Below, in pieces: positions 27,930 to 30,161 of a stretch of 64,000 nt of DNA (positions are counted from its first letter, which is position 1; each line of letters starts with the position of its first letter). The translations under genes and the position numbers were made by a program. The notes below the pieces were generated by a model that saw only the letters and a list, made by a program, of their open reading frames with translations, was not told the DNA's origin and ran no database searches. This DNA comes from Reclinomonas americana ATCC 50394 (lineage: Eukaryota): NCBI GenBank assembly GCA_048213135.1, contig PS015054.1, positions 381,812-445,811 on the forward strand. The letters run 5' to 3'.

Positions 27930-30161
27930 TCAAAATGGAACTTCGGGGATCCAGCACATGACTTGCTCCTTGCGCATCAGCGGCTGCACGATGCGAGTGG
28001 CGGCCCGAATGATGCGGTAGGCCAGCGCGATTCGACTTGGCGTCGGCACGGGGAACACGGTCTGCCCGACGCCGTACAGCGCCACGGTGAAGAAGTGTCG
28101 AATCAGCGAGTAGTAACTCGGTCGCAGTCTGCATGCACGGAGCAGTCAGTGGCCGGGAGGAGGAGACAAAGAAAGAAAGAAAGCGGATGGCAACGCAACC
28201 CAGAGAGGAGGCTGACGGGTCCGTTGAGAGCCTCGCCACCGAGCTTGAAGTAATCGAAGCAGGCGCGACGCATGTGCGGCAGCGACGGATCGTCGGACGC
28301 CGCAAATACCGAATACAGGGCGCCGGCGAGGATGTTGATGGTGGCGGCGTGGTGCTTGCGGTCCTTGTAGAAGCGAGCCAGGCCCTTGAGCACGCGCTTG
28401 TGGTCGGAGAGGTCGGGGATCTTGGCAATCATTTCGCGCAGCATCTTGACGTCCGAAAACGCCACCGTCATGCCGCCGCCGGTCAGCGGGTGGCGGCAGT
28501 TGAAGGCGTCGCCGAGCAGAATCACACCGCGTGCGTACGCGGTGCCCGGAGGCATCTCGCGGTTCGGCATGGAGCGAATGCGCCCGTGGCGCACGGCCTC
28601 CAAAAAGTGTGGGCGGATCTCCTCCGGCATTTGCGGCATGATTTTCTCCTCCAAATACTGCTGCATCTCGCCCGTGGCGACGCTCGGCAGCTTCGACCCG
28701 GGAATGTCGACCAGCACGCGCACATCCTTGGAGGAGATCGGGTACACCAACACCGGCGACGGCGACGCCAGCACCACATGTCCGTGGTTCGGATACGGCA
28801 GTGCCGTCGGCGCGTCGCCCTCCATCAGCAGCGCCACGAATTGTGAACGCACCGAGGGGCACACTGGGTGGCGGCGAGGAGGGAGTGAGCAGGCAACAAG
28901 AAAAAAGAAAACGAGAGACAAAAAAAGTGGCAAAAGCATACAAGCACTGGGGCTTCCCAAGTGGTCCCCCACCCTAGTACTGACCCAGCTGAACGCGGCT
29001 TAACTTCACAGATCGGACGGGATGTGGTGTTTTCCGCGTCATGTGGCCGTATGCGACTACTTAACGGAAAGAGTGCACGGGAGGATTGCAGGGGGAGAGT
29101 GGAAGAAGAGAGAAATCGTGCCCCCCACTCACCATCGGGAGCCACCGACTTGCGGAGCACCGAACCCGAGCCGTCGCACACGACCGTGAGTGGCGCACGC
29201 TGCTCCAGCGTCTCGCCGGCCTCGTTGCGCCAGCGCACGCCACGCACAGCGCCGTCCTCCTCAATGAGACCGGTGACGGTGCCGACAATCGTGGTGACGC
29301 TGGCATCATCACGCACGTGGAGAGGTAAGCAGAGGAAACGTGCTGCACGAGCGAGTGGGAGGAGGCACGCAACTTGGACTCGGCCTTGGCAGCGCCGCGC
29401 AGCTTGTCAACAAACCGGCCATGATGGAAGCTGCGACCGAGCTTCTGCTCGCCGTCGACCACCGGGTACGGCAAGCGCTGTCGCTCGTCCTCCAAGAAGA
29501 TCGAGTAGCCCTCCACCTTGGCGGCATCAATGTCCTCCAAGCAGTCTGCTTGTGGGAGAACAGTGAGTGAGTGAGGTCTACTCGCAGAGGAAAGAGCACG
29601 CGTGACGAACCAGCGAGTCCAAGGTCCACCAGGCGATCCACACCGCCCGGCTGCAGCAGCTCACCGACGATACTGCGCGCACGAATGAGAGAGGCAGAGA
29701 GAAGAGAGTGAGGCACTCGCGCACTCACCGATCAGGTGTCTCCCAGTCGCGCTCAATGAGCCACACGCGACGCCCATCGCGAGCGAGCACCGCGGCCAGT
29801 GCAGAGCCGGCGACACCCGAGCCCACGATAATCACATCAAAAGTGGCACTCGCGCTCTGCCAGACACACACACGCGCGACCGCACGGAGTTGTGAGGCGG
29901 AGTCACACAACGAAAGCAATAGCGCACACACACATATAATAAGGGAGGGAGAGGGAGAGAGAGGCGGAGGAGGAGAAGGTGCATTGCTTTTTTTTCGTGA
30001 TGCAAGCATCTTTGAGTGCATCTCTCTCTCTCGCCACTCACCGCTGTGTCGCGACTGACGGCCGCCAGTGCCAGTGTGGTCGTCATGACACGCGGGAACA
30101 GGTGTTGAAGAAGCCGACCCACGCGACTCGAGGGTGCGGCAGTCGACGAGGAGGATGCCAT
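27930..30161 (-). CDS. SQLE: Squalene epoxidase/monooxygenase
   Basis: [11 protein letters not shown] (FAD), IERD...[69 protein letters not shown]. Confidence 0.95.
28936..29054 (-). rRNA. 5S rRNA gene (119 nt) nested in an SQLE intron
   Basis: GCATACGGCCACATGACGCGGAAAACACCACATCCCGTCCGATCTGTGAAGTTAAGCCGCGTTCAGCTGGGTCAGTACTAGGGTGGGGGACCACTTGGGAAGCCCCAGTGCTTGTATGC. Collinear with eukaryotic 5S; helix I GCAUAC/GUAUGC; box A (AGTTAAGC) and box C (GGTGGGGGACC); TTTT terminator directly downstream. Confidence 0.93.

What the first reader, a model, noticed from the sequence alone, without database searches (positions are those of the whole stretch)
28864..29132. Complete 5S rRNA gene nested in sense orientation inside a squalene epoxidase intron
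Seen: this SQLE intron is 269 nt, against about 40-110 nt for most introns here. It holds a 119-nt 5S sequence (29054-28936) with intact helix I, box A, box C and a TTTT terminator. A second T7 run follows and merges into the host intron's polypyrimidine tract. Known: 5S is a Pol III gene with an internal promoter, normally in tandem arrays, linked to rDNA/SL/histone repeats, or dispersed between genes. Inference: this lineage may keep dispersed 5S genes inside Pol II introns, with the Pol III terminator doubling as a splicing signal. Mature 5S could also be released from the excised intron.
Basis: partly seen in the sequence, partly recalled or inferred. Interest (0 to 1): 0.85.

Follow-up and report, generated by a model that had tools for sequence, protein, structure and literature searches.

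The report
5S rRNA gene inside SQLE intron
A complete 5S ribosomal RNA gene lies, pointing the same way as its host, inside an unusually long intron of a squalene epoxidase gene of an unidentified protist, and it is most likely an ordinary independent gene copy that happened to land there.

Summary
Rfam RF00001 matches window 29054-28935 (minus strand) end to end at 103.2 bits (gathering score 38, E 1.7e-21). It is the only credible RNA-family hit in the 64 kb. It lies in a 269-nt GT..AG, phase-1 intron (29132-28864) of a minus-strand squalene epoxidase gene. Homologues align colinearly across this intron, and the spliced frame is an intact 518-aa protein. The gene's other four introns are 56-74 nt. 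A T4 run starts at the last 5S base, and T7, T4 and T6 runs follow.

No genome, sequencing run or related locus was available. All T runs lie upstream of the only branch-like CTCAC, so they are not the tract between branch point and AG.

My best reading is a self-contained Pol III 5S gene copy nested by chance in a Pol II intron, like intronic tRNA genes of nematodes. Whether it is expressed, and whether other copies or an array exist, remains open. It is a modest curiosity.

The parts
28935..29054 (-). 5S rRNA gene, full length (120 nt)
   Evidence: Rfam RF00001, 103.2 bits against a gathering score of 38, E 1.7e-21, model 1-120/120. 33 of 34 consensus pairs are standard by the NC line of that alignment.
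28932..28935 (-). First T4 run, the presumed Pol III terminator. Its first T is the last 5S position.
   Evidence: Sequence. The terminator role is inferred from established Pol III biology and was not tested.
28901..28926 (-). Back-up T runs (T7 28926-28920, T4 28911-28908, T6 28906-28901) in the T-rich 3' flank
   Evidence: This 71-nt downstream part of the intron is 45% T, against 28-37% in the other four introns.
28864..29132 (-). Host spliceosomal intron 4 of squalene epoxidase: 269 nt, phase 1, GTGAGT...CAG. There are 78 nt before the 5S gene and 71 nt after it.
   Evidence: Homologues are colinear across it. Splicing restores an intact frame.
28885..28889 (-). Only branch-point-like motif (CTCAC) in the intron, with its A 22 nt from the intron end. 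It lies downstream of the 5S gene and of all the T runs.
   Evidence: Motif scan. The other introns carry CTNAY 13-36 nt from their ends. Branch use was not shown.
29133..29299 (-). Squalene epoxidase exon 4 (...[20 protein letters not shown])
   Evidence: tblastn with P0003 and P0004; spliced translation.
28200..28863 (-). Squalene epoxidase exon 5, the core of the SE domain
   Evidence: Pfam PF08491, E 9.6e-83. 62-65% identity to P0004 and P0003.
27930..30021 (-). Whole squalene epoxidase coding region as modelled: six exons, five introns, 518 aa from the first in-frame ATG
   Evidence: The start codon and any further 5' intron were not verified.

Best explanation
This is a self-contained 5S rRNA gene copy of the ordinary Pol III type: internal promoter within the conserved 5S sequence, and transcription ending at the T4/T7 runs. 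It lies inside an otherwise ordinary spliceosomal intron of the squalene epoxidase gene. The two genes are read independently. Pol III makes 5S RNA from its own start to its own terminator. Pol II reads through the whole unit, and the spliceosome removes it with the intron, which it must do because retention shifts the frame. The intronic place is most likely incidental. In a compact, intron-rich genome with scattered 5S copies, an intron is one of the few places where an inserted 5S unit does no harm.

Shown: the gene is complete and structurally sound, it has a terminator, the intron is real, and the host frame is intact. Inferred: Pol III transcription, expression, and that the insertion came after the intron.
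For: - The 5S match is full length and strong: 103.2 bits, E 1.7e-21, 33 of 34 consensus pairs standard.
- A T4 run begins at the last 5S base, and three more T runs follow within 35 nt. That is what an autonomous Pol III unit needs and what a snoRNA-like intron passenger does not need.
- There is no A-rich tail, no LINE-like tail and no flanking inverted repeat, so this is a DNA-level gene copy rather than a retro-copy or SINE.
- The host gene is intact. It has six exons colinear with three homologues and a 518-aa open frame after splicing.
- Without the 120-nt 5S gene the intron would be 149 nt. The neighbouring introns are 56-74 nt, so the extra length is largely the 5S unit with its own flanks.
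Against: - There is no expression evidence of any kind.
- Only one copy was seen, so I cannot say whether it matches the organism's working 5S sequence or whether an array exists elsewhere.
- The inner pair of helix I is a C.C mismatch. This could be decay or could be typical of the lineage.
- No A/T-rich element at about -30 is obvious upstream (sequence), though upstream requirements for 5S differ between lineages (recalled).
- A bit score cannot separate a working gene from a recently dead copy.
- An MFE fold of the whole intron does not keep 5S helix I and is no more stable than shuffles (z +0.35). This says nothing about the Pol III transcript, but it gives no support for a structured intron.
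Confidence: 0.65

Rival explanations
1. Silent orphan copy (pseudogene or 'orphon'). A 5S unit was copied into the intron by a DNA-level accident, is not transcribed or not used, and still looks intact only because the event is recent. The working genes lie elsewhere, for example in a tandem array or linked to rDNA or SL repeats.
For: - A single copy in 64 kb.
- A C.C mismatch at the base of helix I.
- Tandem or linked 5S arrangements are the common state in many protists. One example is the SL-5S-U2 repeat of Diplonema (PMC10161547, passages).
- Transcription by Pol II across the unit could interfere with Pol III factor binding, as in the Polr3e MIR case (PMC5358760, start of abstract).
Against: - 33 of 34 pairs are standard, the match is full length and the terminator is intact.
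- There are no indels except one position in loop C relative to the consensus.
- Dispersed functional 5S genes are well known, for example in Yarrowia (PMC2566860, start of abstract; PMC2911113, passage).
Confidence: 0.22
2. Intron-derived 5S. The 5S RNA is, wholly or partly, cut and trimmed out of the spliced squalene epoxidase intron made by Pol II, as intronic snoRNAs are. The sense orientation would then be required.
For: - Sense orientation, and a position between the 5' splice site and the branch point.
- There is precedent for a stable tRNA-like RNA made from an intron of a Pol II transcript: GUT15 in Arabidopsis (PMC6152437, start of abstract in the listings).
Against: - The gene carries its own terminator runs flush with its 3' end, which such a route does not need.
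- Sense orientation has a 50% prior by chance.
- A sterol-pathway pre-mRNA is unlikely to supply the amounts of 5S RNA a cell needs (inference).
- No paper describing such a route for 5S turned up in searches.
Confidence: 0.05
3. Regulatory 5S decoy. In the pre-mRNA the 5S fold binds free ribosomal protein uL18 (L5) or TFIIIA and so tunes splicing of squalene epoxidase. [quoted passage not shown]
For: - The full 5S sequence is present in sense in the pre-mRNA.
- Intron retention would shift the frame and stop at 28827, so splicing efficiency could set the protein level.
- P5SM shows that L5 binding to a 5S-like element can steer splicing (PMC3378873, passages).
Against: - The host is a sterol enzyme, not a component of the 5S pathway.
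- There is no cassette exon.
- The element is a complete gene with a terminator, not a partial mimic.
- The MFE fold of the intron does not preserve 5S helix I.
- No conservation data are available.
Confidence: 0.03
4. Assembly artefact: 5S-containing reads were wrongly joined into this intron.
For: 5S is usually repetitive, and the window does contain an assembly gap (77 N at 20052-20128).
Against: - The 5S is flanked on both sides by unique intron sequence that runs without a break into exons 4 and 5.
- The gap is 8.8 kb away.
- A correct splice frame is kept.
Confidence: 0.02

Closest known systems
tRNA genes nested in introns of protein-coding genes (Caenorhabditis; PMC4999229, abstract and passages; PMC3342880, start of abstract)
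   Same: A small Pol III gene with an internal promoter lies wholly inside a spliceosomal intron of a Pol II gene, on either strand. The host gene stays functional.
   Different: Here the guest is a 5S rRNA gene (type 1 promoter, dependent on TFIIIA), not a tRNA gene. In PMC3342880 the words '5S rRNA' and 'rRNA' do not occur at all. Influence of the host promoter and conservation across species, both shown for the nematode tRNAs, could not be examined here.
Pol III-occupied MIR element in the first intron of mammalian Polr3e (PMC5358760, start of abstract in the listing)
   Same: A Pol III transcription unit inside a Pol II intron, with the prospect of transcriptional interference between the two polymerases.
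   Different: The MIR is antisense and is a SINE relic with a regulatory effect on its host. Here the unit is sense, is a complete rRNA gene, and no effect on the host is shown.
Dispersed 5S rRNA genes, e.g. Yarrowia lipolytica including tRNA-5S dicistronic genes (PMC2566860, start of abstract; PMC2911113, passage)
   Same: 5S genes outside rDNA and outside tandem arrays, scattered singly in the genome.
   Different: In what I read, the Yarrowia copies are described as scattered or fused to tRNA genes, not as lying in introns. No tRNA gene is present anywhere in this window.
Plant 5S rRNA mimic (P5SM) in TFIIIA pre-mRNA (PMC3378873, passages)
   Same: A 5S-like RNA structure present in sense in a Pol II pre-mRNA, where it could meet 5S-binding proteins.
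   Different: P5SM is a partial mimic inside an alternatively spliced suicide exon of TFIIIA. Here a complete 5S gene with a terminator lies in a constitutive-looking intron of a sterol enzyme gene.
Intron-hosted snoRNAs, and the intron-derived tRNA-like RNA of Arabidopsis GUT15 (PMC6152437, start of abstract)
   Same: A stable small RNA encoded in sense in an intron.
   Different: Those RNAs lack their own promoter and terminator and are processed from the Pol II transcript. This 5S has its own T-run terminator and, by family, an internal Pol III promoter.

Membership tests
5S rRNA (Rfam RF00001) | Covariance-model score above the curated gathering score over the full model | tested here: met
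   103.2 bits against 38, E 1.7e-21, model 1-120/120.
5S rRNA (Rfam RF00001) | Three-way junction with helices I-V formed by standard pairs | tested here: met
   Only one pair is flagged non-standard (C.C at the inner end of helix I) among the 34 consensus pairs in the cmscan alignment. RNAfold of the 120 nt alone forms helix I (pairs 1-8 with 112-119) and helices II and III.
Functional eukaryotic 5S gene (Pol III type 1) | Run of four or more T directly after the 3' end | tested here: met
   T4 at 28935-28932, then T7, T4 and T6 within 35 nt.
Functional eukaryotic 5S gene (Pol III type 1) | Internal control region bound by TFIIIA; Pol III occupancy; RNA present in ribosomes | not testable with these tools
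   The conserved interior is present in the alignment. No genome and no sequencing run was available. The box names are recalled, not tested.
Spliceosomal (U2-type) intron | GT..AG borders, a branch-like motif near the 3' end, and removal that restores the reading frame colinear with homologues | tested here: met
   GTGAGT...CAG, with CTCAC 22 nt from the end. tblastn colinearity with P0003, P0004 and P0005. A 518-aa open frame after in-silico splicing. Splicing itself was not observed.
Intron-processed small RNA (snoRNA-like) | No promoter or terminator of its own; matured from the spliced intron | tested here: not met
   The gene has its own T-run terminator and belongs to a family with an internal promoter. 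Processing could not be tested.
5S-derived SINE or retro-pseudogene | 5S-related head joined to an unrelated body or tail, an A-rich or simple-repeat tail, and target-site duplications | tested here: not met
   The whole 5S is present with nothing appended and no A-rich tail. The only flanking direct repeat (10 of 12 nt, D2) is matched or beaten in 714 of 2000 shuffles, and pairs of unrelated introns do as well.
P5SM-type 5S mimic | Partial 5S mimic inside an alternatively spliced cassette exon of the TFIIIA gene | tested here: not met
   The host is squalene epoxidase. The element is a complete 5S gene. No cassette exon is evident.

The most novel reading that the evidence does not exclude
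In this unsampled protist lineage the 5S genes are generally housed in sense inside introns of Pol II genes. Their output is then coupled to the host genes, either because host transcription opens or gates the Pol III unit, or because 5S RNA is matured from the spliced intron as snoRNAs are. The squalene epoxidase copy would be one member of such a set. Nothing I could run excludes this, because no second 5S copy and no RNA data could be examined.
Probability: 0.06. Interest if true: 0.85.

Novelty: new member of a known kind. Interest (0 to 1): 0.35.

Why it matters
Pol III genes nested in Pol II introns are known for tRNA genes and SINEs. I found no description of a complete 5S rRNA gene in a spliceosomal intron in six full-text searches. 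These cover open-access papers only; supplements are closed, and genome annotations may hold uncommented cases.

If this copy is active, it is a compact natural case for studying how a TFIIIA/TFIIIC/TFIIIB-bound unit and an elongating Pol II share 269 nt in a genome whose introns are otherwise about 55-75 nt. It would also show how a short-intron spliceosome copes with a structured 120-nt guest.

If it is one of many, it would add a new arrangement to the known 5S gene layouts of protists. If it is a lone dead copy, it is only an insertion scar.

Tried and rejected
- **Whole genome:** none is held for this window, so copies could not be counted.
- **Sequencing runs:** none was listed, and no RNA holder was listed. 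Read laying could therefore not be used.
- **Other 5S copies elsewhere:** a 36-nt stretch of this 5S had 0 exact matches in metagenome contigs, genome contigs and viral contigs. Exact matching of one 36-mer is a narrow test.
- **Related squalene epoxidase loci in metagenomes:** 104 pattern matches, none confirmed by tblastn.
- **Earlier findings of this scan:** nothing on this genome, sequence, relatives or topic. The eight notes returned concern archaeal and bacterial 5S genes and do not bear on this.
- **Organism identity:** not obtained.
  - The best squalene epoxidase relatives are an unnamed metagenome protein (66%) and Andalucia godoyi (63%).
  - An XRN exon finds nothing closer than 42-59% local identity over a quarter to a half of the query.
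- **Target-site duplication:** the 12-nt direct repeat 195 nt apart (D2) would leave a typical 74-nt intron. It is not significant, because 714 of 2000 shuffles reach it and unrelated intron pairs score the same. Rejected as evidence.
- **Flanking inverted repeats (transposon ends):** none bracket the 5S.
- **Structured intron:** the MFE of the 269 nt is not more stable than shuffles (z +0.35) and does not keep 5S helix I. The idea that the 5S fold shortens the effective intron therefore has no support from folding.
- **Other ncRNAs in introns of this window:** no tRNA. There were no further Rfam hits beyond four chance-level matches far below their gathering scores. The other long gap, in XRN (49417-49688), folds like its shuffles (z -0.57).
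- **Other copies of the intron or 5S flanks in the window:** only 11-12-nt chance matches.
- **Drouin and Tsang 2012 on 5S arrangements in protists:** not held. I know it only as a reference cited in PMC10161547.

Full report
**What is there**

The minus strand of window 28864-29132 reads GTGAGT...CAG and is 269 nt long. Inside it, cmscan against all 4227 Rfam families finds one match at or above a gathering score in the whole 64-kb window. This is RF00001 (5S rRNA) at 29054..28935 on the minus strand, at 103.2 bits against a gathering score of 38. Its E-value is 1.7e-21, and model positions 1-120 of 120 are matched without truncation.

A permissive scan (E up to 1) adds only four chance-level hits elsewhere, all far below their gathering scores. 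ARAGORN finds no tRNA gene in the window. The match is therefore far beyond chance.

In the cmscan alignment only one of the 34 consensus pairs is flagged as non-standard.

**The host**

The flanking sequence encodes squalene epoxidase on the same (minus) strand.
- The exon just downstream of the intron (28861-28202) matches Pfam PF08491 at E 9.6e-83.
- An upstream exon carries the FAD-binding GxGxxG region.
- tblastn with three homologues aligns six exon blocks in order: an unnamed metagenome protein P0003, Andalucia godoyi P0004, and a EukProt protein P0005.
- The junction at the 5S intron is colinear...VLRKSVA[PD] | [VC]PSVRSQFV..., matched by ...FRSKIS... | ...P(I/V)VRSHFV... in P0003 and P0004.
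- The intron is phase 1 (GAT G|TG TGC).
- Joining the exons by coordinates gives an open frame of 518 aa from the first ATG (30021) to a stop at 27932-27930. This is within the 468-530 aa of the close homologues.
- If the intron were retained, the frame would shift and stop at 28827, so the gene needs this intron removed.

**Intron sizes**

The four other introns of this gene are 56, 65, 74 and 71 nt. For the XRN-type exonuclease gene at 46.1-50.1 kb I estimated intron sizes from gaps between tblastn pieces. Most come out at 89, 70, 112, 58, 76, about 95 and 67 nt. There are also gaps of about 155, about 256-272 and about 930 nt whose exon-intron structure I did not resolve.

The 5S intron is therefore clearly long for its own gene. 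It may not be the only long intron in the window. Of its 269 nt, 78 precede the 5S gene, 120 are the gene and 71 follow it.

**Terminator and splice signals**

A T4 run begins at the last 5S position (28935-28932). T7 (28926-28920), T4 (28911-28908) and T6 (28906-28901) follow. The 71-nt downstream segment is 45% T, against 28-37% in the other four introns. This fits a T-rich 3' flank that belongs to the 5S unit.

The only CTNAY branch-like motif in the intron is CTCAC at 28889-28885, with its A 22 nt from the intron end. The other four introns carry such motifs 13-36 nt from their ends. All four T runs lie upstream of this motif, and the stretch between it and the AG is C-rich.

A looser enhancing role for U-rich intron sequence cannot be excluded.

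**How did it get there**

- There is no A-rich tail, no appended non-5S body, and no inverted repeat bracketing the gene. It does not look like a retro-copy, a 5S-derived SINE or a DNA transposon.
- One tempting detail was a 12-nt CT-rich direct repeat, 10 of 12 identical, lying 195 nt apart on either side of the gene (D2). Removing one repeat and the interval would leave a 74-nt intron, a typical size.
- This does not survive a control. 714 of 2000 composition-preserving shuffles of the two flanks reach the same score, and unrelated intron pairs of the same gene score 9-11 of 12. I reject it as evidence.
- No other copy of the 5S or of its flanks is present in the window.

**What could not be done**

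- No genome is held for this window.
- No sequencing run was listed, so expression, splicing and RNA ends could not be examined.
- A 36-nt stretch of the 5S had no exact match in the metagenome, prokaryote-genome or viral collections.
- A search for related squalene epoxidase loci in metagenomes confirmed none.
- The scan's earlier notes held nothing relevant.
- The organism remains unidentified. It is a GC-rich (59%), intron-rich eukaryote.
  - Its squalene epoxidase is at best 66% identical to an unnamed metagenome protein and 63% to that of the jakobid Andalucia godoyi.
  - Its XRN exon has no close relative.

**Most likely mechanism**

I read this as an autonomous Pol III 5S gene copy nested in a Pol II intron (confidence about 0.65).

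Shown:
- a complete, well-paired 5S sequence
- a terminator flush with its 3' end, plus back-ups
- a real intron, and an intact host frame

Inferred from the established biology of 5S genes:
- the internal promoter within the conserved interior
- TFIIIA/TFIIIC/TFIIIB assembly
- an initiation at G1
- termination in the T runs
- Pol II read-through of those runs
- removal of the whole unit by splicing

The intronic position is probably incidental. In a compact genome with many short introns, an intron is a harmless landing place, and sense orientation has even odds.

[quoted passage not shown] Another is the Pol III-occupied MIR in the Polr3e intron, which interferes with its host (PMC5358760, start of abstract). 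Dispersed 5S genes as such are known, for example in Yarrowia (PMC2566860, start of abstract; PMC2911113, passage).

**Rivals**

- A silent, recently copied orphan (about 0.22) is the main rival. A bit score cannot tell a working gene from a young dead one. The helix I mismatch could be decay. Linked or tandem 5S layouts are common in protists (for example Diplonema, PMC10161547, passages).
- Maturation of 5S from the spliced intron (about 0.05) is made unnecessary by the gene's own terminator and is unlikely on quantity grounds. Nothing excludes it.
- A P5SM-like decoy that binds uL18 or TFIIIA in the pre-mRNA (about 0.03) has a real precedent in plant TFIIIA (PMC3378873, passages). Here, however, the element is a whole gene, the host is a sterol enzyme, and a naive fold of the intron does not keep 5S helix I and is no more stable than shuffles (z +0.35).
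- Misassembly (about 0.02) is unlikely, because unique intron sequence joins the 5S to both exons.

**Novelty**

Six full-text searches found no description of a complete 5S rRNA gene inside a spliceosomal intron. These combined 5S rRNA gene, intron, nested, dispersed and similar phrases. The six exact phrases matched no paper. A paper devoted to RNA genes nested in Caenorhabditis introns does not contain the word rRNA.

This is weak evidence of absence. Only open-access text is searched, supplements are closed, the review of protist 5S arrangements (Drouin and Tsang 2012) is not held, and genome annotations may contain uncommented cases.

I class the finding as a new member of a known kind: a Pol III gene nested in a Pol II intron. 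It is real and neat, but mechanistically expected, and on present evidence it is a single locus. The bolder reading is that this lineage houses its 5S genes in introns and couples them to host transcription or splicing. That stays open at a few per cent and would be of high interest. A genome-wide RF00001 count plus RNA end mapping would settle it.

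Noticed in passing
window 49417-49688 (+), XRN-type exonuclease gene: There is a second long gap (about 272 nt) between conserved exon pieces (...WVYSYYY | [10 protein letters not shown]...). With GT..AG borders at the obvious places the frame does not join. Either a micro-exon, a non-canonical border or a base error is involved. It has no Rfam hit, and its fold is no more stable than shuffles (z -0.57).
   Followed up: partly
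window about 48240-49275 (+), XRN-type gene: A gap of about 930 nt beyond what the homologues account for lies between aligned pieces. It could be a lineage-specific coding insert or a large intron. Not resolved.
   Followed up: no
window 29132-29124 and 28889-28881 (-): In the MFE fold of the 5S intron, the 5' splice site GUGAGUGGG pairs with the branch-region CUCACUCCC. Intron 1 of the same gene also combines GTGAGT with CTCAC. This may be trivial complementarity of the two consensus signals.
   Followed up: no
window 20052-20128: A run of 77 N, an assembly gap.
   Followed up: no
window 26705-27766 (-): An OTU-like cysteine protease domain (PF02338, E 4.4e-11) lies in a long open frame immediately downstream of the squalene epoxidase gene on the same strand. 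A GA-rich simple tract follows the squalene epoxidase stop (about 27890-27850).
   Followed up: no
window 47545-47580 (+): A (GT)n-like microsatellite lies inside a presumed XRN intron.
   Followed up: no
whole window: 7 of the 10 longest open frames tested (333-676 aa) gave no Pfam family at E 1e-5 or better. The two conserved genes examined have no close relatives in a collection of 5.8 billion protein clusters. The source appears to be a poorly sampled eukaryotic lineage.
   Followed up: partly
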